The translations under genes and the position numbers were made by a program. From Chloroflexota bacterium (GTDB taxonomy: Bacteria > Chloroflexota > Dehalococcoidia > UBA2979), in contig JAQBZW010000001.1 of assembly GCA_027622315.1 (NCBI GenBank), forward strand, positions 433-64,432: a DNA stretch of 64,000 nucleotides, given 5' to 3'. Positions 1,674 through 52,047 of the stretch are shown here, in pieces (within the stretch, counting starts at the first letter, position 1; each line of letters opens with the position of its first letter). The notes under the pieces were generated by a model that saw only the letters and a program-made list of their open reading frames with translations, was not told the origin of the DNA and made no database searches.

Positions 1674-2645
1674 CTATCGCGACGCGATCTCCGCGCCCCA
1701 CTCCCGGCGCACGGCCTCCAGCAGCACGCCGGCGGCGGAACGCGGATCGCGCCTGCGGCCGGCGACTTCGTCCACCAGCGCTGCCAGCGCGCCACTCTGG
1801 TTCGCGGTCACGAGCGCCTCGCGATGCAGTGCCGCACGTGTGAGCGCGACGATCTGCTTGCGCGCCAGGTCCCGGCGCTCACGATCGCCGTGCTCGTTGG
1901 AGCGCATGAAGGCGTGGTGCTCGTCAATGTGGTCGACGAGTGTGCCCACGCTGTCACCGGTCTTCGCCACGACCTTCAGAATGGGCGGACGCCAGGCGCC
2001 CAGATCGGCGATCGCGAGCAACGCCTTCAGCTGCGTCATGGCCGTGTCGGCGCCCGCGAGGTCCGCCTTGTTCACGACCAGGATCTGTGCCACCTCCATG
2101 AGGCCGGCCTTCATCGACTGGATCTCGTCGCCGCCGCCGGGGTTTGTGACGAGCACGGTCGTCTGGGCGGCGGTCGCGATCTCGACCTCGTCCTGGCCGG
2201 CGCCGACGGTCTCGATCATGACCACGTCGAAGCCTGCGGCATCCATCAGATCCGCCACGCCGGTCGCGGTCTCGGAGAGGCCGCCGAGGTTGCCGCGTGA
2301 GGCCATCGAGCGCATGAAGACGCCGCCGTCGGCGGTGAGGTCCTGCATGCGGATGCGGTCGCCGAGAATCGCGCCGTGCGAGAACGGTGAGGAGGGATCG
2401 ACGGCGACGATGCCCACGGTGCGCTCGCGCCGGCGCTGCTCACGTGCCAGCGCACCAACGAGCGTGGACTTCCCGGCTCCCGCGGAGCCGGTGATGCCGA
2501 CGATCTGCGCGTTGCCGGTGTACCGGTACAGCCTCCGCTGAAGTTCGCGGCCGATCGCCGAGTCCGCCTCGACGTGAGAGATCGCGCGGGCGAGCGCTCG
2601 CCGGTTGCCCGCGCGTACGCCCTCCGCGAGCTCGGCCGCTCCCAC
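1674..2645 (-). CDS. meaB: methylmalonyl-CoA mutase-associated G-protein chaperone MeaB (ArgK family GTPase)
   Basis: VGAAELAEGVRAGNRRALARAISHVE...GITGSAGAGKSTLVGAL...VNKADL with a P-loop. A GTG at 2643-2645 lies 5 nt after the stop of the B12-subunit gene. The longer track ORF would overlap that gene. Confidence 0.8.
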   Translation of the reverse strand: MGAAELAEGVRAGNRRALARAISHVEADSAIGRELQRRLYRYTGNAQIVGITGSAGAGKSTLVGALAREQRRRERTVGIVAVDPSSPFSHGAILGDRIRMQDLTADGGVFMRSMASRGNLGGLSETATGVADLMDAAGFDVVMIETVGAGQDEVEIATAAQTTVLVTNPGGGDEIQSMKAGLMEVAQILVVNKADLAGADTAMTQLKALLAIADLGAWRPPILKVVAKTGDSVGTLVDHIDEHHAFMRSNEHGDRERRDLARKQIVALTRAALHREALVTANQSGALAALVDEVAGRRRDPRSAAGVLLEAVRREWGAEIASR

Positions 2646-2650
2646 GCCGG

Positions 2651-3058
2651 CTATGTCCGCACCGGCGCGTGCGCCTTCACGAACTCGATGATGTCGCCGG
2701 TGTTCGTCCCGGGGCCGAAGACGCCCTGGAACCCGATCGCCTTGATCTTCTCGATGTCCTCCTGCGGGATGATGCCGCCGCAAAACAGCAACACGTCATC
2801 GACCCCTCGTTGCTTGAGCTCGTCCACGACGCGCGGAAAGAGCTCGAGGTGCGCGCCCGAGAGGATGGACAGGCCGACGACCTGCGCGTCTTCCTGGAGG
2901 GCGGCTTCGGCGATCATGGCCGGCGTCTGGCGGATGCCGGTGTAGATGACCTCCATACCGGCATCGCGCAACGCGCGCGCCACCACCTTCGCGCCACGGT
3001 CGTGCCCGTCCAGGCCGGGCTTCGCGATCAGCACACGAATTCGCTGTTCGTTCGCCAA
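2651..3058 (-). CDS. methylmalonyl-CoA mutase B12-binding small subunit (C-terminal cobalamin-binding domain homolog)
   Basis: (L)[40 protein letters not shown]...[13 protein letters not shown] contains the DxHxxG cobalamin-binding motif. The start is TTG at 3056-3058, preceded by GGAGGAG (5 nt). Confidence 0.8.
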
Positions 3059-3173
3059 GATCTCCTCCGTGCTCCGCGGTGCCGTTCGTTCGGTTCCACC
3101 GCGCGGTATCCACGCGCTCACAGTCTGTGCTCCCGGCGGCACGCGCGCCACAGTGCCGCGTGCCGGCGCGAGG

Positions 3174-3992
3174 CTAGCGTTCGAATTGAATGAGCTGGAT
3201 CCCGAGCCCGAAGGCCTGCTCCGCCGAGACCGTGGACGTGACCGACCGGGGCAGCACCCCCGGCTGAGCATCCGGGAGCTCGATCCCGTGCCCCCGGTAG
3301 CGCGCAATCTCGGCCGCGATGTCCGGTACCTCGATCGCGACCATGGACGCAGCGCGCTCGCCCTGCTCAGCGATGCGCTGCGCCATCGGCGAATCGGGAC
3401 CGGTGGGAGCGAGCAACTCGATCGTGCACTGGCTGCACGGCATCTGGCCGATCACCATGCCGCGGCCCTCAGCCCGCACCTCGCCCTTCACCTCGAGCCC
3501 GACGATCCGCTTCCACGTCGCCTGTGCGGCGTGGTAGTCGGCAACCGTCACGGCGAGGTGATCGAAGCCCTTGCCGGTGCCCACGTGGGCACCGGCGGGC
3601 GGCTGTGCGAACTCGATGAGCACACCGTGCACGGACTTCGGGTGCACGAAGCCGATGCGCCCGGCCAGGCCGTCGCGCGACGTCTCATCGATGAGCTCCA
3701 CGCCGGCGGCCTTCAGGCGCGCGAGCTCGCCATCGACGTCGTCCGTGTTGAAGCAGATGTGGTGCAGGGTCTGACCACGGCTCTCGAGAAAGCGAGCGAC
3801 ACCGGTGTCATCGCGTGTCGGCTGCAGCAGCTCGATCTCGTTCTCGCCGAGTCCGAGCAGCACGCCGCGCACGCCCTGCTCTTCGATCACGCGATCCTCG
3901 GTCACAGGCAATCCCATGACGTCGCGAAAGAAGCCGAGCGCGGCATCGGCGTCGCGCACGACGACGCCGACGTGGTGGACGCGATCGATCAT
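3174..3992 (-). CDS. methylmalonyl-CoA epimerase (VOC/glyoxalase fold) fused to a second VOC domain
   Basis: The N-terminal domain, [27 protein letters not shown]...[39 protein letters not shown]...[16 protein letters not shown], is MCE-like. A second VOC-type domain follows. AAGGAG SD precedes the ATG. Confidence 0.7.
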
Positions 3993-4047
3993 GGAGTGCT
4001 CCTTCGTGATCTCGAGTGCGTGTCGTCGCGGATCGCGATCGCGGTGA

Positions 4048-4521
4048 TCAGATGCCCTGCGCGCGGCGCCAGTCGCGGATCGCGTCGATGTGTTCGCGGT
4101 CGTGGCCGCCCGCGTTCGCGAGGTTGTGAGCCGTGCGCCCGGGCACGATGCGCTCCAGGTCCATCGTGCCGCGGAGGCCCCGCACCGCCGCCTCGTGGCG
4201 TTCGCGGTTCTGGCGGAAGTCGACCATGAGCTGCTCCCACGACCGCTCGCGTGCGGCTGCCACCGAGCCGGCGTTGTACGCGTCGTCGTCGCCCTCGTAG
4301 CCCGGCACGGCCGGGCGCTCGCCGCTAGCCATCAGCTCCAAGGCATGAGACCAGCCTGCCTGCCATCCGCCGAGGTGCCCGATAATGTCATGCACCGACC
4401 ACTGCTCGGGGCCGAACCAGCCCTCGCTTCGCCGCTCGGCCGGCAGCGCGTCGATCACGTCGATCAGCTCAGCGCGCGCCTGCGCGTTGCCCTCGATCAG
4501 TTCGTCGATCACATCGGCCAT
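4048..4521 (-). CDS. DinB/YfiT-like (DinB_2) metal-dependent protein
   Basis: MADVIDELIEGNAQARAELIDVIDALP...WSVHDIIGHLGGWQAGWSHALE is His-rich and DinB_2-like. The internal ATG of ORF 4048..4596 was chosen as the start. Confidence 0.5.
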   Translation of the reverse strand: MADVIDELIEGNAQARAELIDVIDALPAERRSEGWFGPEQWSVHDIIGHLGGWQAGWSHALELMASGERPAVPGYEGDDDAYNAGSVAAARERSWEQLMVDFRQNRERHEAAVRGLRGTMDLERIVPGRTAHNLANAGGHDREHIDAIRDWRRAQGI

Positions 4522-4610
4522 CGTCGCCCCCGCCCGCGCGATCGCGCGTCCCGCACAGCCGTGCCGCCGTCGCGCGGGAAGTTCGCCCGCGGACACGGAT
4601 CAGGCACGGA

Positions 4611-6266
<1,656 letters not shown>

Positions 6267-6288
6267 AGTACGCCTCGGGTTCCCCGCC

Positions 6289-6300
6289 GCACTCGAGTGC
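6289..6300. promoter_or_regulatory. 12-bp perfect palindrome GCACTCGAGTGC in the 5' leader of the mutase operon
   Basis: Read directly from the sequence, 23 nt upstream of the mutase ATG. Function unknown. Confidence 0.25.
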
Positions 6301-6439
6301 GACGCACCGGTATTGCTTGGACTCGCACGGGTGGTCGAGGGCCGGAGTGTAGGTACGCGAGATGAGGTCGATCAACACGACGAGTCCGGGAGCGCCCGGT
6401 CACGCATAGCAGTTGGCGGGCGCCACGGGTGCGGAGTCA

Positions 6440-28215: not shown

Positions 28216-29469
28216 CTACTCCATGGCACCCGCCGCCGCATAGTCCGCGATCTCGTCCGCGCTCAGTCCCAGCACCTCCGTCAGCACCTCGAACGTGTGC
28301 TCGCCGATCAGCGGCGCGCGTGATGTGACAGGCGGATGCGCCCGTGAGCGGATCGGGTTGCGATGGATCAAGAACGATCGCCCGGACGGATGATCCCCGG
28401 GCGCGGTCTCGTGGAACTGGTTGCCGCCGAGCGTCGGATCGCGATGCACGCTATCCGGGATGGTCTGATACGGACCGGCCGGCACGCCGGCTGCCTGCAG
28501 TTGTTCCGCCAGCTCATGCCGGTCGAATGCGCGCGTCCACGCCTCCAGCGCGTCGCGGATCTCCTCGCCGGCGGCGCGGCGGCCATCGAGCGTGGCGAAG
28601 CGCGTGTCGCGCAGTGCGTCGACGCCCGACAGCGCGACCAGCGTCTGCCACTGCCGGTCGTCGTAGACCGCGATCGCGCACCAAGAATCCTCGCCGGCGC
28701 AGCGGAAGAAGTCGTGCGGGCAAGCACTCGCGTCGTCGTTCCCGATTGGCGCCGGCGCGCTCCCCGTCGCCCCGTACTCGAGTAACGCCGGCCCCATGAT
28801 CGCGATGGTCGACTCGTACTGGCTGAGCTCGATGAACTGCCCCTCGCCGGTGCGATCGCGGTGTTCGAGAGCGGCGAGCACGGCGATCGCGGCATGGAAC
28901 GGATTCGACGAGAAGTCGGCGTACTGGTGTCCCCAGGGCAACGACGGCTCGCCGGGGTGGCCGGAGACCGACTTCAGCCCGGCCACGCCCGCGAACATGT
29001 CGCCGAAGCCTCGCCAGCGTGCGCGCGGCCCGCTGCTCTCCATGCTCGGCATGTTGACGACGATCACGCCGGGGTTCAGATCGCGCGCGCGCTCGTAGCC
29101 CGCGCCCCACTGCTCGAGCTGATCGCCAGCAAGGTTGCACAGCACGACGTCGGACGCGGCGACTAGCCGCTGGAGCAGCTCGCGGCCCTCCGCGGAGCCG
29201 AGATTCACCGTGCACGATCGCTTTCCCGAGTTCGCGTCCTGGAAATATCCACCGCTGTCGGGATCCGAATTCGCGTCGCCCGGGAGCACGCCGAACAGCG
29301 GCGTGCGGTTCGCTCGTCCGACCTCCATGCGCTTGCGTGACTCCACCTTGATCACGTCCGCGCCGAAGTCCGCCAGCAGCCGCGCCGCGAACGGGCCCGC
29401 GATGATCCACGAGAGGTCGAGCACGCGCACTCCCGCGAGCGGCCGGGGGGCGTGATCGCCCGCGCTCAT
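28216..29469 (-). CDS. CoA transferase family III (CaiB/BaiF/Frc-like)
   Basis: LAGVRVLDLSWIIAGPFAARLLADFGADVIKVE... is full length (417 aa). Its start overlaps the upstream gene's stop (ATGA). Confidence 0.85.
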   Translation of the reverse strand: MSAGDHAPRPLAGVRVLDLSWIIAGPFAARLLADFGADVIKVESRKRMEVGRANRTPLFGVLPGDANSDPDSGGYFQDANSGKRSCTVNLGSAEGRELLQRLVAASDVVLCNLAGDQLEQWGAGYERARDLNPGVIVVNMPSMESSGPRARWRGFGDMFAGVAGLKSVSGHPGEPSLPWGHQYADFSSNPFHAAIAVLAALEHRDRTGEGQFIELSQYESTIAIMGPALLEYGATGSAPAPIGNDDASACPHDFFRCAGEDSWCAIAVYDDRQWQTLVALSGVDALRDTRFATLDGRRAAGEEIRDALEAWTRAFDRHELAEQLQAAGVPAGPYQTIPDSVHRDPTLGGNQFHETAPGDHPSGRSFLIHRNPIRSRAHPPVTSRAPLIGEHTFEVLTEVLGLSADEIADYAAAGAME

Positions 29470-30332
29470 AGCACGCCCTCAGCGCGCAGCCCGGCGAGCG
29501 CCGCGCCGTCGAGACCAATGGCGCCGTACACCTCGGCGTTGTGCTCCCCGAGTCGCGGGGGGCGCCCGCCCACGCCCCCGGGGGTGACGCCGAAGCGCAT
29601 CGGCAGACCCGCATCGCGCGGCACGGTCGCGAGCTCCGGATGGTCGATGTCGACGAAGAACGCACGGGCTTCGAGGAAGGGGTCCCGCAGCAGGTCGGCC
29701 GCGTCGTGCACCGGCAGCGCCAGCAGCCCGCGCGACTGGACCGCATCGACCAACACGCCTCGCGTCTGCGTGCCAACCCACCGCGCGATCAGCCGGGTGG
29801 GACGTTCGTCCGCCATGAACTGATCGTGGGTGAGGTCCGCGCGCAGCGCGCGCAGCGCGCGCAGCTCCGCGACGACGGCCGGTGCATCCTCGCCGCTGAG
29901 TTCGCCGACGAGCGCGATGGCCTCCGGGTCGCGCCAGGGGTTGAACGCGACGTAGCCGTCGGCCGCCTCGTAGAGGCCGTTGGGCAGACCGTCGCCGCGT
30001 GGCGTGCGACCGCGCTCGAAACCGAACTGGTGGTAGAGCGACGCGTTCTGCATCTGGAACGTGACCAGCGTTGCGACGCGCTCGATCGCGATGTCGACGA
30101 CATCGCCACCACCCCCGATGCGCGCGGAGCGGCGGGCGATCAGCGCGCCGAGCGCGGCGGCGAGTCCCGCCAGCTCCGACGCCTGCTCCGGGCCAAAGCG
30201 CGCGGGGCACCCCTCGCGGTAGCCGTACAGGCCGAGCATGCCGCTCATCGCCTGGCAGACCAGGTCCCCACCCAGTCCCTCTCTCTGGCCACATATCTGT
30301 CCGGTCATGTCCGCCGCTCGATACGCACGCAA
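29466..30332 (-). CDS. CoA transferase family III homolog lacking the N-terminal about 150-aa Rossmann/CoA-binding region (truncated paralog)
   Basis: It begins near the catalytic-Asp region (GGDLVCQAMSGMLGLYG) and continues through the small domain and C-terminus. No N-terminal domain is encoded upstream in any frame; only 118 bp separate it from the divergent gene. Confidence 0.55.
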   Translation of the reverse strand: MRAYRAADMTGQICGQREGLGGDLVCQAMSGMLGLYGYREGCPARFGPEQASELAGLAAALGALIARRSARIGGGGDVVDIAIERVATLVTFQMQNASLYHQFGFERGRTPRGDGLPNGLYEAADGYVAFNPWRDPEAIALVGELSGEDAPAVVAELRALRALRADLTHDQFMADERPTRLIARWVGTQTRGVLVDAVQSRGLLALPVHDAADLLRDPFLEARAFFVDIDHPELATVPRDAGLPMRFGVTPGGVGGRPPRLGEHNAEVYGAIGLDGAALAGLRAEGVL

Positions 30333-30450
30333 TCCGGATGCGCCGAGGGCGCGCCCGCCGATCGGCGCGCATAATCAGCGCGCCGCGCGCGGGATCGCGC
30401 GACGACACGGCGATCGGATGCGGGCCGGAGGGGGTGCGGGGGGGCGACTC

Positions 30451-32207
30451 GTGGTTGTGCATCGTGGAATTGTGATCGTCCACGGCGTGGGCGAAGCCGG
30501 CAAAGGCGGGTACCTCGATCTGTTCGTGGAACCGCTGGCGCGCTTCGTCGGCGACGCGATCGAAGATGCCAACGTGGCGATCGAAGTCAGCAACGAAGCG
30601 GACATCGGCCGCATGAGCTCCGCCACGTTGCGTCTGCGGGACGAGAACACGCGGGCGGTCGTGGAAGAGTGGCGCATCCAGGACGCCTGGTGGGCGCGGT
30701 CGTTCGCAGCGAGCGGCTCTCAGGTGGTGCTGTACTGGGGCATCATCGCCGGCATCACGTCGATGTGGATGACCTTCCGCAACGTCTTCGTCCGCAACGC
30801 GCTGCGCTTCCTCATGCCGCGCCGCTACGAGCAGCTCCCGCTCGCGCGTGCGGACCTGCGCGGGCGGCCGCTCAGCCCGAGCACGGCCCGTCGCCTCGGC
30901 GAGGCGGACGAGGGCGCATGGGTGGTCGCCGGCGCCGCGCGCATGAAGGCGCTACTCGATGCATTCGTGTGGATGCTGATCACCGCCGGTTACCTGGTCG
31001 TCGCGGTGACGGGTCTCCTGATCGTGATCCCCGTCTACCTGCTCCTGCTCACCCCGCTCGCGATGCTGGTTCCACAGGTGTCGCGGGTGCAGCGAGCGAT
31101 CGTGGGCACGCTCGTGCGTGGCGTCGGTGATCAGCAGGCGACGACCACGCGCCGGTTCGCGCTCGCCGCCGCCGCGAACGAGGTCTCGCGCGCGCTGGCG
31201 CCCATGCTCGACCCGAGAGCGCTGGCGGCCGAGCGCGACCGTGACCCGGCGTTCGCCGGATACCGCACCGTGACGGTGGTCGCCTACTCGGGTGGCACGA
31301 TCGTCTCCTACGACGCGCTGGCGACGCAGGTCCAGGACTGGATGGCGCAGCCCGTCCCGGAGGGGATCGAGCGGCCGACGCGCGTGAACTGGATCACGGC
31401 GGGAAGCGGCCTGAACCTCGCGTACCGCATGCGCCGACGCCGCTCACAGCGCGATAACGCGTTCTGGGGGCGTCGCATCGACGGCTACGTAAACTGGTTG
31501 AACATCTACGCGCGCTACGACCCGATTCCGCAGGGTCCGGCGCCCGGCGCGCTAGTGGAAGCGCTCGTCGGGCGAGACCCGTGGCTCGACGTTCCCCCCG
31601 ACACCGGGCAACAGCGGCCGCCGTACGTGTGCCTGCGAGTCGTGAACGACGACTTCCCGGCGACGGACCACTTCGGCTACTGGAGCAACGGGGACGAGGT
31701 GCTCTCACGGGTCGCGCTCGTCGTGATGTCCGACACGCTCGCCCACAGACAGATCGACCCGCAGGATGTCGCCTTCGGCACCAGTCCACTCACACGACTG
31801 GCGTCGGAGGTGGCACGGCGGACGGCCCGCGGCCGTCCGCACCGGAACGAAGTCCTGCGCCGGCAACTGCCGGTCTACCTCGGGATGCTCGGGTTCATCG
31901 CGCTGCTACCGCGGGCCGCACTCGCCGGTCGCTGGCTGCTCGGCAAGGACACGCTGTTCGGCGTGCCCGCGGTCAGCTTCCGCGGCCGCGTGCTGGACGA
32001 GTTGCTGCCGACGTCGCTCGGCGGCCTGAGCATCGAGGGCTACCGCGACTGGCTGGTGGGTGTGGCCGCGATCGCGTTCGCGGCGCTGGTCGCCGTCCAG
32101 CTCATCCAGCTGCTCGCGACCCTCGCCCGCTGGGTCCGCGACGGGGGATCGTTCTGGCTGGTGATCGTTCCGGTGCTCGGGACCGTGCTCACGATCGCGC
32201 TCGTCGC

Positions 32208-32232
<25 letters not shown>
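30451..32232 (+). CDS. membrane-anchored alpha/beta-hydrolase-like protein (HG oxyanion motif, GYSGG nucleophile elbow, at least 5 TM helices); hypothetical
   Basis: A GTG start lies after a G-run SD. IVIVHGVGEAGKG...VVAYSGGTIVSYDAL...NDDFPATDHFGYW, with hydrophobic helices in the middle and at the C-terminus. Confidence 0.5.
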
Positions 32233-44271: not shown

Positions 44272-45939
44272 CTAGATCGCGACGTAGACCGGCTGCTCGC
44301 CGAACACCCGGCGCCACATGTTGCAGATCTCGCCGACGGTGCAATACGCGTGCGCGGCCTCGACGAGGTACGGCATCACGTTCTCGCCGTCTTTCGTCGC
44401 CCGCTCGAGCTCGCTCATCGCACGGGCGGCGCGGGCGGCGTCTCGGGTCTTCCGCGTGCGGCGCAGCCGCTCGAGGTGTCGCGCCTCCCCGTCGGGGTCC
44501 ATCTCGAGGATGGGGATGTCGAGCGCCTCGTCGAGCACGTAGTCGTTCACGCCCACGATCACGCGTTCGTGCTGCTCGATCTCACGCTGATAGACCTGCG
44601 CGGCGTCCGCGATCTCGGACATGAAGAAGCCCTGCTCAATCGCCGGCAGCACGCCGCCGAGATCCTCGATGCGGTCGAAGTACTGGAGGCAGATGCGCTC
44701 CATCTCGTCGGTCATCGACTCGACGAAGAACGAGCCGCCGAGCGGATCCACCGTGTTCACGACACCGGACTCGTGCTCGATCACCTGCTGCGTGCGCATC
44801 GCCAGGCGCACGGCCTTCTCACTCGGTAGCGCGAGCGCCTCGTCCCACGAGTTCGTGTGCAGCGACTGCGTGCCGCCGAGCACACCGGCGAGCGCCTGGA
44901 TCGTCGTGCGGATCAGGTTGACCTCGGGCTGCTGGCTCGTCAGCGAGACGCCGGCGGTCTGCGTGTGGAAGCGCATCAGCCACGAGCGCGGGTTCTTCGC
45001 GCCGAAACGCTCGCGCATCTGGCGCGCCCAGATGCGCCGCGCCGCGCGGAACTTGCCGATCTCCTCGAAGAAGTCGTTGTGGCAGTTGAAGAAGAACGAC
45101 AGGCGTGGCGCGAACTCGTCGATGTCGAGGCCGCGTTCCAGCCCCCACTTCACGTACTCAATGCCGTTGGCGAGGGTGAACGCGAGCTCCTGCGCCGCCG
45201 TCGAGCCGGCCTCCCGGATGTGGTAGCCGGAGATCGAGATGCTGTTCCATTCCGGCATCTCGCGCGACGCGTACTCAATCGTGTCCACCACGAGGCGCAT
45301 GCTCTCCTCGGGCGGATAGATGTACTCGTTCTGGGCGATGTACTCCTTGAGGATGTCGTTCTGAAGCGTGCCACGCAGCGTGCTGCGGTCGACACCCTGC
45401 TTCTCCGCCGCAGCGATGAACATCGCCCAGATCACCGCCGCCGGTGAGTTGATCGTCATCGACGTCGAGATCTTGTCGAGCGGGATCTGGTCGAACAGGA
45501 TCTCCATGTCGGCGAGCGAGTCGATGGCCACGCCGCAGCGGCCGAACTCGCCGAAGGCCTCCGGCTCGTCGTGGTCGTAGCCCATGAGCGTGGGCATGTC
45601 GAAGGCGACCGACAGTCCGTCGTCGCCGTGCTCGATCAGGTAGCGATAGCGTGCGTTCGTCTCCTCGGCGGAGCCGAAACCGGCGAACATGCGGATCGTC
45701 CATGGCTTCGCCCGGTAGCCGGTGCGATGGACGCCGCGGGTGAAGGGGTAGGCGCCGGGCAGGGCAAGGTCGCGCTCGTAGTCGAGCTTCGCGACGTTCG
45801 TCGCGTCGTACACGCGATCGATTGGCATGCTCGATGTCGTGATGAACGGACCAGGCTGTTCGCGGCCTTCCGCGGCCACCTCGGCCTCGTAGCGCTCGCG
45901 CGCCTCGCGGGCGGCTTTCGCCGTCTTCTCGTCGAACAT
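44272..45939 (-). CDS. second coenzyme-B12 acyl-CoA mutase large subunit, isobutyryl-CoA-mutase-like (Gln replaces the substrate-carboxylate Arg)
   Basis: 555 aa. [33 protein letters not shown]...[21 protein letters not shown]...[11 protein letters not shown]. The other copy has [10 protein letters not shown] at this position. GAAGGAG SD is present. Confidence 0.85.
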
Positions 45940-45974
45940 GAAGCACTCCTTCTCCGAGCAGCCCCATCGTATGC

Positions 45975-46065
45975 GGGTGTTGTAGGGGCTTGTAGGGGCA
46001 GGCTGACCAGCCTGCCGAGCACCGCCGATGTTCGCCGGGCAGGCTGGTCAGCCTGCCCTACGAAC
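45975..46065. repeat. about 26-bp inverted repeats (GTAGGGGCAGGCTGACCAGCCTGCC ... GGGCAGGCTGGTCAGCCTGCCCTAC), each also a self-hairpin, preceded by a TGTAGGGGC x2 direct repeat
   Basis: Read from the sequence. It spans the SDR stop codon and the leader of the mutase-2 gene. Confidence 0.5.
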
Positions 46066-46849
46066 GCAGTCGGGCCTTCGTCGCCGCGTCCGCGAGCCGC
46101 TCGACGGCCTGCTCGTCGTTGAACGCCTCGCCGGTGCACGTGTCCGGCGTCTGTAGCGCCAGCAACACGGCGGCTTCGACGTAGCTCGCCGCCGTGGGCA
46201 GGCCGGCGCGCACGTCCGGCGCGAGATCGCCGCCGTGGCCAAAGCGCATGCCCGGCGTCTCGATCGCCGCCACGGGCTTCAGTGCGTTCACCGCGATCCC
46301 GTGGGCGCGCACTTCGCGCGCGAGCTGGCGCGTGAAGTCCTCGACCGCGCGCTTCGTGATCCCGTACGACCCCGAGTCCTCCCGGTCGGCCGCCACCGAC
46401 GAGATGTTGATGATGCTCCCGCTGCGCTGCTCGACCATGGTCGGAAGCACGGCGCGGGTGCAGAAGAACGGGCCGTTCACGTTCACGCGGAACTGGAGCT
46501 CCCAGTGACGCGACTGGAGATCAGACAGCGCGCCGGGCACGAGCACGCCCGCGTTGTTCATGAGGATGTCGATCCGCCCGTATTTCGCGAGCACGGTCTC
46601 AACCATCTGCTCGACCGACGCGCGGTCGGCGACGTTGCAGACGACGGGGAAGCCCTCGCCGCCGACCTCGTCGACCTTGATCGCCGCCGAATAGATCGTG
46701 CCCTCGAGGATCGGGTTGCTGACCTGCTCGGTGCGCGCGGCGATCACTACGGTCGCTCCCTCGCGCCCGTATTCGATGGCGCAGTACTCGCCGAGTCCGC
46801 GGCTCGCGCCGGTGATGATCGCAACCTTGCCCGCCAGCCTGCCCGCCAT
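46058..46849 (-). CDS. SDR-family oxidoreductase
   Basis: MAGRLAGKVAIITGASRGLGEYCA... (TGxxxGxG) and ...NNAG... with a YxxxK-type region. AAGGAGGA lies before ATG 46849. The upstream 28 codons of the track ORF are discarded. Confidence 0.8.
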   Translation of the reverse strand: MAGRLAGKVAIITGASRGLGEYCAIEYGREGATVVIAARTEQVSNPILEGTIYSAAIKVDEVGGEGFPVVCNVADRASVEQMVETVLAKYGRIDILMNNAGVLVPGALSDLQSRHWELQFRVNVNGPFFCTRAVLPTMVEQRSGSIINISSVAADREDSGSYGITKRAVEDFTRQLAREVRAHGIAVNALKPVAAIETPGMRFGHGGDLAPDVRAGLPTAASYVEAAVLLALQTPDTCTGEAFNDEQAVERLADAATKARLRS

Positions 46850-46989
46850 GCCGTCCTCCTTCGTCCCCGCGGGCGACGATAGCGCCCGCTTCCGGCGAGC
46901 GGAGCGCGCGAAGCCGCCGCTCGCCAGAGACACGAAGGCGGCCGCCCTCCGGGGCGGCCGCCTTTACGATCGTCGACCCGGGGGCTGCG

Positions 46990-48171
46990 CTAGTTCAGGT
47001 TCTCGAAGATCGCCGAGATGCCCTGGCCCCCGCCGATGCAGAGCGAGACGAGCCCGTACTTGCCGCCTGTGCGGGCGAGCTCGTGCATGAGCTTGACGGT
47101 CAGGATCGCACCGGTCGCGCCGACGGGGTGGCCGAGCGCCACCGCGCCGCCGTTCGGGTTCGTGCGCTCGGGGTCGAGGTCCAGCTCACGCGTGCACGCC
47201 AGGGCGACCGACGCGAAGGCCTCGTTCAGCTCGATGCTGTCGAGCTCGTCGCGCTTGATCCCCGTGCGCTCGAACACCTTCTTCGTCGCGGGGATCGGAC
47301 CGCTGCCCATGATCGCCGGGTCGACGCCCGCTACCGCACTGCCGACAAACCGCAGCCGCGGCTTCAGGTTCAGCTCGGCCGCCCGTTTCGCCGTCATCAT
47401 GACGAGGGCGGCTGCGCCGTCATTGATGCCCGACGCGTTGCCGGCCGTGACCCTGCCGCCCTCCTGGAAGGCGGGCCGCAGGCTGCCCATGCGCTCGATG
47501 CTGGAGTCGGCTCGTGGGTGCTCATCGGTGTCGGCGATCTTCGTCTCGCGTCCCACCTTCACCTCGAGCGGGAGAATCTCCTCCTTGAAGCGTCCCTCGG
47601 TCGTCGCCGCGACCGCGCGGCGGTGGCTCTCGACCGAGAAGATGTCCATGTCCTCGCGCGAGATGTTGTACTTCTGAGCGAGGTTCTCCGCCGTGACGCC
47701 CATGTGGTAGTTGTTGAACGGATCCGAGAGCAGGATCGGGATGCCGTCCTCGAGCACGCCGTTGCCCATGCGCAGGCCGAAGCGTGCGCTGCGGTCGTAG
47801 TACGGCAGCATCGTCATGTTCTCGGTGCCGCCGGCGATCACGATCTCCGCCTCGCCCGTCTGCAGCCAGCGAGCGGCCGTGGTGATCGCCTCGAGCCCGG
47901 ACCCGCAGAGGCGGTTGACCGTGTAGGCGGGCGTCTCGATCGAGAGCCCGGCGTCGATCGCGGCATGGCGTGCGATGTAGGCGTCCTCGGCCACCTGGCC
48001 GACGCAGCCCATCACGACCTGCTCAACCTGCCCCGGCTCAATGCCCGCGCGCTTCACGGCCTCACGAATGACCGCGGCGCCGAGGTCCGAGGCCGGTGTC
48101 TCGATGAAAGAGCCGCCGAAGCGACCAATCGCCGTCCGCACCCCACTGACGATGACGATGTCTTCGCTCAT
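46990..48171 (-). CDS. acetyl-CoA C-acetyltransferase (thiolase II)
   Basis: MSEDIVIVSGVRTAIGRFGG...NRLCGSGLEAI...NGGAVALGHPVGATGA...CIGGGQG are thiolase signatures. Confidence 0.9.
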   Translation of the reverse strand: MSEDIVIVSGVRTAIGRFGGSFIETPASDLGAAVIREAVKRAGIEPGQVEQVVMGCVGQVAEDAYIARHAAIDAGLSIETPAYTVNRLCGSGLEAITTAARWLQTGEAEIVIAGGTENMTMLPYYDRSARFGLRMGNGVLEDGIPILLSDPFNNYHMGVTAENLAQKYNISREDMDIFSVESHRRAVAATTEGRFKEEILPLEVKVGRETKIADTDEHPRADSSIERMGSLRPAFQEGGRVTAGNASGINDGAAALVMMTAKRAAELNLKPRLRFVGSAVAGVDPAIMGSGPIPATKKVFERTGIKRDELDSIELNEAFASVALACTRELDLDPERTNPNGGAVALGHPVGATGAILTVKLMHELARTGGKYGLVSLCIGGGQGISAIFENLN

Positions 48172-48407
48172 GATCGGGTCGCTCCCTGCTTCTCGAATCC
48201 CACTGGTGCTCACGCCAGGGCGGCGCGCCCACCGTCTGTGCTCGTGCCGTGTCCCATGGGGCCGCGCGTGCGCGGTCGCGCACATCCTAGCGACGGCGCG
48301 CGAGCCGAGACAACGGACCGACCATGCGATGTACTTTCCCGCTCCGCGTACCTCCCCGCTCGGCGTCACCCCACTGCGCGGAGCTCTGCCCCGCTGCTTC
48401 CGCAGCG

Positions 48408-48438
48408 ACCCCTTTCCCCCTTCGGGGCGAGGGGTGAC
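48408..48438. repeat. imperfect hairpin with UUCG tetraloop sharing the GGGGCGAGGGG motif with the 40938-41070 element
   Basis: gacccctttccccc-ttcg-gggcgaggggtgac, in the divergent region between the thiolase and typA genes. Confidence 0.4.
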
Positions 48439-48611
48439 GGCGCTCACGCGCCGTGAGGAACGCTCCCCCGAAACCAAGGTGGGGAGTGACCAGAGGCGGC
48501 TAGCTCGCGCGGGTGCGACACTGAATGCTCAACACCACACCCGTCCTTGCCGACGCCCGATCACGCCCGCCGATGCGCGTGTGATCACGTGCCCGGCCCA
48601 TCGGAGACCCC

Positions 48612-50515: not shown

Positions 50516-50752
50516 CTAGTGGGGCAGATCCCGCGCGAGCCGCTCAGCCTCGGTGCGCCGCAGCTCGCGCGCCTCTACCGGTGTGAACGTGCTCGCGCAC
50601 GAGTCGCACTTGTAGCTCGACGCGCGGTCCTCATGCCCCATGTCTTCCGCGCTGTCCCAGCGCGGGACCAGCGTCACGTGCGGACACTGCACAGCGATCG
50701 GTGGCGCCGCTTTCGCAGCTTTTCGTCCCATGATCTTGCTCAACCAGCTCAT
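50516..50752 (-). CDS. small zinc-ribbon-like protein (CPH...CDSC), hypothetical
   Basis: 78 aa with high third-position GC. GGAGGA lies 3-4 nt before the ATG. ...VQCPHVTLVPRW...YKCDSCASTF... Confidence 0.5.
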   Translation of the reverse strand: MSWLSKIMGRKAAKAAPPIAVQCPHVTLVPRWDSAEDMGHEDRASSYKCDSCASTFTPVEARELRRTEAERLARDLPH

Positions 50753-50976: not shown

Positions 50977-51882
50977 TCATGTCGCGCGAGCGTGCCCCTC
51001 GACCTTGCGCCGCGACTGCTGGCGTCGCCTCAGCTCACCCGCGCGACGGAGCAACTCGCGGTTCGTGTCGTCGACCCGCATGTAGTTGTCTCGCCACCAC
51101 GCGGAGTCGTCCCAGGTGAACGGCGTCTGCACCGTGGTCCGCGGGAAGCGTGCGCTTTCGAGCACATCGAAGCCGTACGCGACGATCGCGCGCTGCATCT
51201 CGCTGTCGTATGGCTTGCCCGTCGGGTTGCCGAGCGGGAAGTCCGTGAAGACGAAGCGCGCCACGCCGCACTGCTCCACGATGTCGCGCGCCGAGCCCAG
51301 GATCACCGTGGGGATGCCGTTCGCCTCGAGGTGCCGCGAAACCAGACTCACGGTCTGGTGGCAGACCGGTCAGAGGGGCACCAGCATCGCGATATCGACG
51401 CCGTCCTCGCGACACCAGTCGAGCACTCGCGGCGCGTCCAGTTCGACGGTGCGCCGCTGGCTGTAGTCGGTCGGCACGCCGTAGAAGCGAGGCGAGAGCT
51501 CCGCGATGCGCCCGTCGGCAACGAACTCCTGCAGGCGATGGATTGGGAAGAACGAGTCGAGATCCTCGGTGTGCGTGGCGTCCTTGTCCCACGATCGGTG
51601 CTGGGTGTAGAGGCGCGCAGGCGGCGGCTCGACCGGCGACGCGTATGGCTCACCCGCGGGCACGCGGTCGGGGTCGGGGTCCGTGTCGCCTTCGATCAGC
51701 GACGCGGTGGTGATCAGCGCCACCCGGCTCTCCGCGAGCGGTTTCGCCAGCGGCGCCCACGGCGCGTCCTCGTGGTGGGCCCAGCGGTACGGGTTCCCGT
51801 AGCCGTGGGCGAGGTAGTACTCGCGCGACTTATCGATATAGCTGACGAACATGCGATGCGCCGGGTCGTGGACATCGTCCAT
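50977..51882 (-). CDS. GrdB/PrdB-family (glycine/betaine/D-proline reductase component B-like) selenoprotein; in-frame TGA at 51370-51372 read as selenocysteine
   Basis: Track ORFs 51370..51981 and 50977..51351 are in the same frame, separated by one TGA. The joined product reads ...RLQEFVADGRIAELSPRFYGV...GVDIAMLVPL-U-PVCHQTVSLVSRHLEANGIPTVILGSARDIV..., which parallels PrdB ...DLVVMTAG-U-GTCHRSAVIVQRAIEEAGIPTIII. The start (ATG 51882) follows GAGGAGGG (4 nt). A stem-loop begins 2 nt after the TGA. Confidence 0.65.
51330..51369 (-). other. candidate bacterial SECIS-like stem-loop immediately 3' of the in-frame UGA
   Basis: The mRNA reads UGA-CC-GGUCUG-CCAC-CAGACC-GUGAGUCUGG... with overlapping alternative hairpins (GGUCUG/CAGACC and CCAGAC/GUCUGG). 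Confidence 0.4.
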
Positions 51883-52047
51883 GGAAGCCCTCCTCGGAAC
51901 GAGGAGCCCACTAGAGCACACGCACACTCCGCACGAACAGAGACGATGGGCCCGTGACCACGACCAGCGCGGGCGCCGCACGTCCGGCGCTGCGCCACGG
52001 GTGTTCGCGAGGTGCAGGCATCGGCCGACGATGCGTGTCCGGACGGC

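What the first reader, a model, noticed from the sequence alone, without database searches (positions are those of the whole stretch)
50977..51882. Unannotated selenoprotein: a PrdB/GrdB-family reductase split by an in-frame TGA
Two same-frame track ORFs (51370..51981 and 50977..51351) are separated only by TGA at 51370-51372. Joined, they give about 301 aa. The residues flanking the TGA are MLVPL-[TGA]-PVCHQTVSLVSRHLEANGIPTVIL. This matches the selenocysteine region of D-proline reductase PrdB and glycine reductase GrdB (..MTAG-U-GTCHRSAVIVQRAIEEAGIPTII..), giving the conserved U-x-x-C-H redox motif. The upstream half also aligns with the PrdB N-terminal region (FP..RL.E.V.G.I). A strong SD precedes ATG 51882, and a GC-rich hairpin starts 2 nt after the UGA. 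No grd/prd partner genes (PrdA, GrdA, GrdE) and no sel genes are in the window. This looks like an orphan GrdB/PrdB-like selenoprotein in a high-GC genome, a class that gene callers routinely miss.
Basis: partly seen in the sequence, partly recalled or inferred. Interest (0 to 1): 0.85.

Follow-up and report, generated by a model that had tools for sequence, protein, structure and literature searches.

The report
Missed selenoprotein gene, PrdB-like family
This is a real selenocysteine-containing gene that gene callers split in two at its UGA codon, but it belongs to a PrdB-like family catalogued as a selenoprotein since 2005, so it is an annotation fix, not a discovery.

Summary
A 301-codon gene lies on the minus strand at 51882..50977. 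It has one in-frame TGA (51372-51370) and coding-type composition on both sides.

Evidence that the TGA encodes selenocysteine (Sec):
- Thousands of full-length homologues carry Cys at this column (LVPL-C-PVCHQT).
- Every close orthologue (nine loci, several independent samples) and 120 of 120 genome hits to L-U-P-V-C-H-Q-T keep the TGA, followed by an intact downstream reading frame of about 125-135 codons in every locus not cut by a contig end.
- dN/dS is about 0.1-0.2 on both sides of the TGA.
- A hairpin starting 10 nt after the UGA (7-bp stem, loop CGUGA) is paired in 95.8% of cells across 113 Sec forms, with two covarying pairs. It is broken in Cys forms (Ser AGU 102/102 versus AGC 48 of 50 Ser codons). 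This looks like a bacterial Sec insertion (SECIS) element.
- The TGA aligns exactly with the Sec of two RefSeq-annotated PrdB proteins.

The protein fails the curated PrdB and GrdB cut-offs. No prdA/grd partner was seen beside it in the window or in 191 related loci. It is therefore a stand-alone PrdB-like paralogue of unknown substrate.

The same family (uPVCHQT) is already listed as "proline reductase PrdB" in the Sargasso Sea and Global Ocean Sampling (GOS) selenoproteomes.

Sec machinery in the source genome could not be checked.

The parts
50977..51882 (-). Full-length coding sequence of the PrdB-like selenoprotein (301 aa including Sec171; stop 50979-50977)
   Evidence: Translation. Homologues are 50-70% identical over 90-99% of the length. 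dN/dS is 0.09-0.19 on both sides of the TGA. GC3 is 0.85/0.90.
51370..51372 (-). UGA codon read as selenocysteine (residue 171)
   Evidence: Cys occupies this column in all 64 full-length homologues aligned. TGA is conserved in L001-L009 and in 120/120 genome loci. It aligns with the Sec of two RefSeq PrdB proteins.
51358..51372 (-). U-P-V-C-H redox motif (Sec171, Cys174, His175)
   Evidence: C171, P172, V173, C174, H175 and Q176 are invariant in 65 sequences. C174 and H175 are also invariant against true PrdB.
51341..51359 (-). SECIS-like hairpin: stem ACCAGAC/GUCUGGU (nt 14-20 / 26-32 counted from the U of UGA), loop CGUGA
   Evidence: It is the centroid fold of the window sequence. 95.8% of cells are paired in 113 Sec forms; 29 cells carry compensatory changes, a count reached by 0/500 shuffles; slid controls give 15-33%. 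The covarying pairs are 18-28 (GC 98 / AU 16) and 15-31 (CG 87 / UA 15). Ser is AGU in 102/102 and Leu is YUG in 121/121. The hairpin is broken in Cys forms (6-bp core paired in 2/55).
51888..51895 (-). Shine-Dalgarno GAGGAGGG, 5 nt upstream of ATG 51882
   Evidence: Read from the sequence. Orthologues start at the same Met (MDDVHDPAHR).
51351..51368 (-).
   Evidence: -10.6 kcal/mol in the window. All 7 pairs form in 29/117 Sec forms and 10/55 Cys forms, so it is not Sec-specific.

Best explanation
Window 51882..50977 (minus strand) encodes one 301-residue protein in which UGA 51372-51370 is decoded as selenocysteine.

How the recoding would work (inferred): a hairpin 10 nt downstream of the UGA (51359-51341; 7-bp stem, loop CGUGA with invariant G22 and U23) acts as a bacterial SECIS element. 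It would recruit SelB·GTP·Sec-tRNA(Sec) to the ribosome paused at the UGA.

What the protein is: a stand-alone member of a large family homologous to PrdB, the selenoprotein subunit of D-proline reductase, and more distantly to GrdB. Its Sec171-Pro-Val-Cys174-His175 motif is homologous to the U-G-T-C-H of PrdB.

How the protein would work (inferred by homology): the selenol attacks a substrate, and Cys174 resolves the adduct into a selenenylsulfide. A thiol or thioredoxin-type donor then re-reduces it.

Shown here: the gene is a single unit, the Sec/Cys pair exists, the hairpin is Sec-specific and covaries, the gene is homologous to PrdB, and no adjacent partner is present. Inferred: actual Sec insertion in this organism, the catalytic cycle, and the substrate (unknown, and probably not D-proline because no PrdA is present).
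For: Homology and motif:
- NCBIfam PrdB E=5.8e-28, residues 40-255 against profile positions 18-232 of 238.
- tblastn finds annotated prdB genes at 27-31% identity, in one piece that spans the Sec.
- The alignment puts the window TGA in the same column as the TGA of Peptoclostridium acidaminophilum and Terrisporobacter petrolearius PrdB.

Sec/Cys pair:
- More than 5,800 homologues were found. The full-length ones carry LVPL-C-PVCHQT.
- The closest ones (82-98% identity) are database proteins truncated exactly at LVPL.

Conservation of the TGA:
- Nine loci (L001-L009, several independent samples) have the TGA plus the in-frame downstream part, intact (about 124 codons) wherever the contig does not end first.
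All 120 are family members, each with an intact 102-140-codon continuation unless cut by a contig end.

Translation beyond the TGA:
- dN/dS is 0.09-0.19 in codons 172-301 and 0.10-0.14 in codons 1-170.

SECIS:
- The hairpin is supported.
- In Cys forms, AGC replaces AGU and the core stem is paired in only 2/55.

Genetic code and machinery:
- TGA is an ordinary stop for about half of the high-GC3 reading frames listed in the window.
- By my reading this is the only genuine TGA with coding signal on both sides.
- One related locus (L095) carries selB, a TrxB-like gene and tRNA-Sec directly beside the gene.

Prior literature:
- The family is already listed as a selenoprotein (uPVCHQT sequences in the supplements).
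Against: - selA, selB, selD and tRNA-Sec could not be looked for in the source genome. They are not in the window, and the genome could not be located in the searchable collections.
- No Rfam SECIS family matches. This is expected, because bacterial SECIS elements are gene-specific.
- The 60-nt fold is not more stable than shuffles (z = -0.47).
- The covariation counts are not corrected for phylogeny, and the Cys-form control set may be phylogenetically narrow.
- There is no experimental evidence for this family's activity.
Confidence: 0.88

Rival explanations
1. Pseudogene or sequencing error: a Cys codon (TGC/TGT) mutated or was misread to TGA, and the gene is dead.
For: A single base separates TGA from TGC/TGT, and most family members have Cys.
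Against: The same TGA occurs in nine related contigs from several independent samples and in 120 genomes. The downstream part is under purifying selection (dN/dS 0.09-0.19). A Sec-specific hairpin accompanies it.
Confidence: 0.02
2. Split gene: translation stops at the UGA and a second polypeptide starts at GTG 51351, as gene callers annotate it (170 aa + 124 aa).
For: Public gene calls list the two pieces separately.
Against: The 18 nt between the UGA and the GTG encode the invariant P-V-C-H-Q-T, including the catalytic Cys and His, and that motif would be lost. No SD was seen before the GTG by eye (no formal SD scan was run). The GTG is simply a conserved Val codon. Cys forms are continuous proteins.
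Confidence: 0.04
3. UGA is recoded, but not as Sec: near-cognate read-through (Trp/Cys) or a reassigned code (table 4 or 25).
For: One database entry (P0013) translates the site as W. Sec machinery is unverified for this genome.
Against: TGA ends about half of the high-GC3 reading frames in the window. The carriers span many phyla that use the standard code. The hairpin has the position and loop expected of a SelB-binding SECIS. selB and tRNA-Sec are adjacent in L095. The W is most simply a gene-caller artefact on a 1.2-kb contig.
Confidence: 0.05
4. It is the true PrdB subunit of a D-proline reductase, and its PrdA partner is encoded elsewhere in the genome.
For: The best named HMM match is PrdB. 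JGI labels many homologues 'D-proline reductase (dithiol) PrdB'.
Against: It scores 97.9 bits against the equivalog cut-off of 300. It has family-specific extensions of about 35 residues at the N-terminus and about 45 at the C-terminus, and different conserved motifs (YSQRKT, DFPLGNP). No PrdA-like neighbour was seen in the window or in 191 loci, whereas real prdB sits in a prdA-prdB operon. The carriers are mostly MAGs from lineages such as Acidimicrobiia, Pseudomonadales and Rhodospirillaceae. These are typically aerobic by general knowledge rather than Stickland fermenters; oxygen tolerance was not tested here.
Confidence: 0.05

Closest known systems
The 'Proline reductase PrdB' (UxxC) selenoprotein family of the Sargasso Sea and GOS selenoproteome surveys (Zhang, Fomenko & Gladyshev 2005; Zhang & Gladyshev 2008). 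RefSeq names its Cys forms 'glycine/sarcosine/betaine reductase selenoprotein B family protein'.
   Same: It is the same family. Supplement sequences such as AACY01093821 read ...YGIPTDYSQRQT...LLVPLuPVCHQTVGLVARHLESNGIPTV...DFPLGNPTG.... 'uPVCH' occurs 15 times in the Sargasso supplement and 93 times in the GOS supplement. The Sec position, the UxxC motif and the existence of Cys homologues all agree.
   Different: This copy comes from a 69% GC genome. Its nearest named relatives are Dehalococcoidia MAGs. The surveys lump the family with true PrdB, and in the passages I read they do not describe the shared SECIS hairpin or the lack of a partner.
D-proline reductase subunit PrdB (TIGR04483), e.g. 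Peptoclostridium acidaminophilum WP_148296006.1 and Terrisporobacter petrolearius WP_083399465.1
   Same: It is homologous over about 215 residues (28-29% identity). Sec is in the same column, followed by x-x-C-H, and the G-I-P-T strand is conserved.
   Different: It scores 97.9 bits against a cut-off of 300. It is 301 aa rather than about 240 aa, with extra N- and C-terminal segments. The motif is U-P-V-C-H-Q rather than U-G-T-C-H-R. There is no prdA, prdC, prdD or prdE nearby.
Glycine/sarcosine/betaine reductase protein B (GrdB/GrdF/GrdH; PF07355, TIGR01918)
   Same: There is distant homology to the C-terminal half (E = 2e-6 to 3e-9) that includes the Sec region.
   Different: It is below all cut-offs (Pfam 13.7 against 22; TIGR01918 26.9 against 65.45). 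It is about 130 residues shorter. No grdA/grdE/grdC/grdD genes are present.
Bacterial SECIS elements (e.g. E. coli fdhF; the general bacterial SECIS model)
   Same: It is a hairpin inside the coding sequence immediately 3' of the UGA. The apical loop begins 17 nt after the UGA and has a G among its first two loop bases. This matches my recollection of published bacterial SECIS models (not re-checked in a paper here).
   Different: The stem is short (7 bp), no conserved bulged U is evident, and no Rfam SECIS family matches. Binding to SelB is untested.

Membership tests
D-proline reductase PrdB (NCBIfam TIGR04483, equivalog) | Score at or above the curated equivalog cut-off (300 bits) | tested here: not met
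   97.9 bits, E=5.8e-28
D-proline reductase PrdB (NCBIfam TIGR04483, equivalog) | Sec (or Cys) in a U-x-x-C-H motif at the position homologous to PrdB's Sec | tested here: met
   The window TGA is in the same alignment column as the TGA of two RefSeq PrdB proteins; C and H are invariant
D-proline reductase PrdB (NCBIfam TIGR04483, equivalog) | Encoded with prdA (pyruvoyl proprotein) in a prd operon | tested here: not met
   Window neighbours are a cNMP-binding patatin, a 78-aa ORF, TypA and an SDR. No neighbour family is shared by more than 12 of 191 loci, and none of the ten largest clusters inspected looks PrdA-like. A real prdB sits in prdA-x-prdB.
D-proline reductase PrdB (NCBIfam TIGR04483, equivalog) | D-proline reductase activity | not testable with these tools
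   Needs biochemistry
GrdB/GrdF/GrdH protein B (Pfam PF07355; NCBIfam TIGR01918) | Score at or above the gathering/trusted cut-off | tested here: not met
   PF07355 13.7 against 22; TIGR01918 26.9 against 65.45
GrdB/GrdF/GrdH protein B (Pfam PF07355; NCBIfam TIGR01918) | Genomic association with grdA, grdE/grdG/grdI, grdC/D and trxA/B | tested here: not met
   None in the window or in the related loci
PrdB-like orphan selenoprotein family (catalogued as 'Proline reductase PrdB, UxxC' in marine selenoproteomes) | Full-length similarity to family members, including the motifs YSQR[RK]T, [UC]PVCHQ[TS] and DFPLGNP | tested here: met
   50-70% identity over 90-99% of the length. The same motifs appear in the published Sargasso sequence AACY01093821.
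PrdB-like orphan selenoprotein family (catalogued as 'Proline reductase PrdB, UxxC' in marine selenoproteomes) | Sec/Cys alternation at one column, with an intact reading frame after the UGA | tested here: met
PrdB-like orphan selenoprotein family (catalogued as 'Proline reductase PrdB, UxxC' in marine selenoproteomes) | SECIS hairpin downstream of the UGA, present in Sec forms only | tested here: met
Selenoprotein (general) | Sec-decoding machinery (selA, selB, selC, selD) in the same genome | not testable with these tools
   It is not in the 64-kb window, and the source genome is not retrievable. In a related carrier, selB and tRNA-Sec are adjacent (L095).
Selenoprotein (general) | Selenium actually incorporated at the UGA | not testable with these tools
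   Needs 75Se labelling or mass spectrometry

The most novel reading that the evidence does not exclude
The family that marine selenoproteome surveys count as 'proline reductase PrdB', one of their most abundant selenoproteins, may not be a proline reductase subunit at all. It may be a self-contained selenoenzyme of largely aerobic heterotrophs. Its own N-terminal extension and the YSQRKT/DFPLGNP motifs would replace the PrdA pyruvoyl partner, and it would act on an unidentified substrate. A weak link to acyl-CoA metabolism comes from neighbouring genes: CoA-transferase III in 12 and acyl-CoA dehydrogenase in 8 of 191 loci.
Probability: 0.5. Interest if true: 0.5.

Novelty: new member of a known kind. 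Interest (0 to 1): 0.3.

Why it matters
In practice, the gene should be annotated as one 301-aa selenoprotein rather than two hypothetical ORFs. The same mis-split is present in many public gene calls for this family (170-aa and 124-aa fragments).

The work also yields a simple, highly specific signature for the Sec form. That signature is L-U-P-V-C-H-Q-T followed by the hairpin ACCAGAC-CGUGA-GUCUGGU, with Ser always AGU and Leu always YUG. It picked out 120 true members with no false hit, so it could be used for re-annotation.

The presence of this gene implies that the source organism, a high-GC bacterium whose nearest named relatives are Dehalococcoidia MAGs, uses selenocysteine.

Scientifically the family is interesting mainly because it is abundant, widespread and has no biochemical characterisation. 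That gap was already evident from the published catalogues.

Tried and rejected
- **Rfam scan of the locus.** No SECIS family matched; the only hits were chance matches to a snoRNA and a miRNA.
- **Thermodynamic test of the 60 nt after the UGA.** It was not distinguishable from shuffles (z = -0.47), so the argument rests on comparative data instead.
It is not conserved and not Sec-specific.
- **Finding the source genome.** A look-up of the window's TypA protein found nothing on record, so sel genes could not be searched for.
- **Conserved partner genes.** Clustering of neighbours across 191 loci gave nothing above 12 loci. The patatin and the 78-aa neighbours are conserved only within the closest clade.
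- **Solved structures.** There was no sequence match in the PDB.
- **tRNA-Sec near the gene.** It was present in only 1 of 120 loci.
- **Cys-form pattern scan in metagenomes.** 44 of the 120 hits were unrelated CPVCHQT matches and were filtered out.

Full report
**1. What is in the sequence**

On the minus strand an ATG at 51882 is preceded by GAGGAGGG (51895-51888). It opens a frame that runs to TGA 51372-51370, continues without any other stop, and ends at TGA 50979-50977. The two mechanically listed ORFs (51370..51981 and 50977..51351) are in this one frame. The 18 nt between the TGA and the GTG of the second ORF encode PVCHQT.

The window is 69% GC. Third-position GC is 0.85 upstream and 0.90 downstream of the TGA, as in the other genes. 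I scanned every TGA for 40 stop-free codons of coding-type composition on both sides. Three passed the filter; by my reading the other two are antisense artefacts, so this is the only genuine case. TGA also ends about half of the high-GC3 reading frames listed in the window, so the organism uses it as a stop.

**2. Homology**

With the TGA read as Cys, the 301-aa product matches several models:
- NCBIfam PrdB (TIGR04483): E=5.8e-28, residues 40-255 on profile positions 18-232 of 238, but only 97.9 bits against the cut-off of 300.
- GrdH/GrdF/GrdB models: E = 3e-9 to 3e-6, all far below their cut-offs.
- Pfam GRDB: 13.7 bits against the gathering score of 22.

A search of the protein collection gave more than 5,800 hits. 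The full-length ones (about 290-300 aa, 50-71% identical over 90-99% of the query) all read LVPL-C-PVCHQT. The closest ones (82-98% identical) are 170-173-aa database proteins that end exactly at LVPL.

tblastn against plasmids found two kinds of relatives. The first are Cys forms that RefSeq names 'glycine/sarcosine/betaine reductase selenoprotein B family protein' (Roseomonas, Haematobacter; 44-47% identity). The second are bona fide annotated prdB genes (27-31% identity). I translated the prdB genes of Peptoclostridium acidaminophilum and Terrisporobacter petrolearius, each with its own in-frame TGA, and aligned them with the window protein. The three TGAs fall in the same column: LVPL-U-PVCHQ against FTAG-U-GTCHR.

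**3. Is the UGA decoded?**

Four lines of evidence bear on this.

(a) *Conservation of the TGA.*
- The contigs encoding the truncated proteins (L001-L008, several independent samples, 78-96% nucleotide identity) all carry the TGA. So does a distant low-GC relative (L009, 55% amino-acid identity).
- Where the contig does not end first, the downstream part is intact and in frame. Gene callers list it as a separate 124-aa product.
All 120 loci are family members with an intact continuation, unless cut by a contig end.
- The carriers span Acidimicrobiia and other Actinomycetota, Dehalococcoidia, Anaerolineae, Alpha-, Beta-, Gamma- and Deltaproteobacteria, Myxococcota, Binatia, Tectomicrobia and Spirochaetales. 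Nearly all are MAGs.

(b) *Selection.* Among four orthologues, dN/dS is 0.10-0.14 for codons 1-170 and 0.09-0.19 for codons 172-301. The part after the UGA is therefore translated.

(c) *An RNA element specific to Sec forms.*
- Counting from the U of UGA as 1, nt 14-20 (ACCAGAC) pair with nt 26-32 (GUCUGGU) around the loop CGUGA. This is the centroid fold of the window sequence.
- In 113 distinct Sec forms, 95.8% of cells are paired. Two pairs covary (18-28 GC/AU; 15-31 CG/UA) and 29 cells carry compensatory changes. No shuffle in 500 reached that count, and slid registers give 15-33% pairing.
- The Fisher tests give 8e-14 and 6e-9, uncorrected for phylogeny.
- Synonymous sites are frozen. Ser is AGU in 102/102, Leu is YUG in 121/121, Thr is ACC in 113/121, and loop bases G22 and U23 are essentially invariant.
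- In 55 distinct Cys-form family members from metagenomes, Ser is AGC in 48 and AGU in 2. Pair 19-27 is then A·C, and the 6-bp core is fully paired in 2/55, against 106/121 in Sec forms.
It is a by-product of the peptide sequence.

(d) *Machinery.* In one carrier (L095) the gene lies next to selB, a TrxB-like oxidoreductase and a tRNA-Sec gene.

The position of the conserved hairpin (stem starting 10 nt after the UGA, loop starting 17 nt after it, G in the first two loop bases) fits published descriptions of bacterial SECIS elements. That statement rests on my knowledge; Rfam has no matching family.

**4. What could not be shown**

The window holds no selA/B/D, no tRNA-Sec and no prd/grd genes. 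This rests on ARAGORN, Pfam on 20 window genes, and my reading of the other translations. The source genome could not be located, so Sec machinery in this organism is inferred, not shown.

**5. What the protein is**

It is homologous to PrdB but is not a PrdB by the curated criteria:
- It scores below the cut-offs.
- It is 301 aa rather than about 240 aa, with conserved extra N-terminal (FVSYIDKSREYYLA.GY.NPYRWA) and basic C-terminal segments.
- Its invariant motifs (YSQR[RK]T, DFPLGNP) differ from PrdB's.
- No PrdA was seen nearby. In Terrisporobacter, prdB sits in prdA-x-prdB. Here the neighbours are a cNMP-binding patatin, a 78-aa ORF, TypA and an SDR. These are conserved only within the nearest clade.

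Across 191 Sec- and Cys-form loci, no neighbour family recurs in more than 12 loci. The commonest neighbours are CoA-transferase III (12), SDR (11) and acyl-CoA dehydrogenase (8).

The mechanism I commit to is the PrdB-type one, by homology. A Sec171 selenolate acts as nucleophile, Cys174 resolves the adduct into a selenenylsulfide, and a thiol donor re-reduces it. The substrate is unknown and probably not D-proline.

**6. Comparison with the literature**

'Proline reductase PrdB' with a UxxC motif was the third most abundant selenoprotein family in the Sargasso Sea (42 genes). It was among the top families in the GOS data (235 Sec and 110 Cys forms). The supplements contain sequences such as ...YGIPTDYSQRQT...LLVPLuPVCHQTVGLVARHLESNGIPTV...DFPLGNPTG..., which is plainly this family. 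'uPVCH' occurs 15 times in the Sargasso supplement and 93 times in the GOS supplement.

A 2006 survey lists 'proline reductase' selenoproteins in Anaeromyxobacter and Geobacter. Later reviews list PrdB among the most widespread bacterial selenoproteins. A full-text search for 'PrdB-like', 'GrdB-like' and similar terms found no functional study of the orphan clade.

**7. Verdict**

The finding is correct and well supported. It is a genuine selenoprotein gene that was mis-split at its UGA. It is a new member, from a high-GC and probably Chloroflexota genome, of a family already catalogued as a selenoprotein for two decades.

What this analysis adds:
- a clear separation of the family from true PrdB and GrdB;
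- the absence of a conserved adjacent partner;
- a sharply defined family-wide SECIS signature.

Interest is modest.

Noticed in passing
L095 1-4500 (CAZTXP010000203.1, a MAG labelled 'uncultured Enterobacteriaceae'): The selB 3' part (9-1328), a TrxB-like pyridine-nucleotide disulfide oxidoreductase (1339-2241) and tRNA-Sec (2267-2362) lie directly beside the Sec-form PrdB-like gene, which is convergent on the minus strand. An acyl-CoA dehydrogenase, an IclR regulator and a CoA-transferase III follow. This is the only one of 120 loci with selC within 8 kb.
   Followed up: partly
L009 310-1206 (ENA contig k141_1122270) / protein P0013: A public gene call translates the family's in-frame TGA as Trp (LVPL-W-PVCHQT). 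This is presumably a code-4 model chosen by the gene caller on a short low-GC contig. Such entries hide Sec forms among 'full-length' proteins.
   Followed up: partly
window 30238-32232 (+): A 664-aa ORF with coding-type composition (GC3 0.87) has no Pfam match at E<=0.001.
   Followed up: no
window 28216-30332 (-): Two adjacent CoA-transferase family III genes. The upstream one (29466-30332, 288 aa) matches only profile positions 128-366, so it may be N-terminally truncated or mis-started.
   Followed up: no
window 1674-6371 and 44272-48477 (-): The window is rich in acyl-CoA and B12 metabolism genes. Pfam-confirmed: one methylmalonyl-CoA-mutase-like gene (44272-45939), thiolase, enoyl-CoA hydratase and CoA-transferases. 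Identified by eye from translations: a second methylmalonyl-CoA-mutase-like gene (4611-6371), a MeaB/ArgK-like GTPase, a glyoxalase/epimerase-like gene, carboxyltransferase, and acetyl- and acyl-CoA synthetases.
   Followed up: partly
window 50516-50752 (-): A 78-aa ORF with two Cys pairs (CPH...CDSC) lies just downstream of the selenoprotein gene. It is conserved (69-84% identity) in the closest relatives L001 and L004-L007 but not in other lineages. It has no credible Pfam match.
   Followed up: partly
L251 5965-8350 (Roseomonas haemaphysalidis plasmid p546-2): A Cys form of the family lies tail-to-tail with a gene annotated as protein adenylyltransferase SelO. This is a single case and was not seen elsewhere.
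   Followed up: no
L250 3589-4935 (Peptoclostridium acidaminophilum plasmid EAL2_808p): The annotated prdB here has no listed gene in the 1.3 kb upstream, where prdA would be expected. The PLSDB gene table is incomplete, so this may be an omitted or pseudogenised prdA.
   Followed up: no
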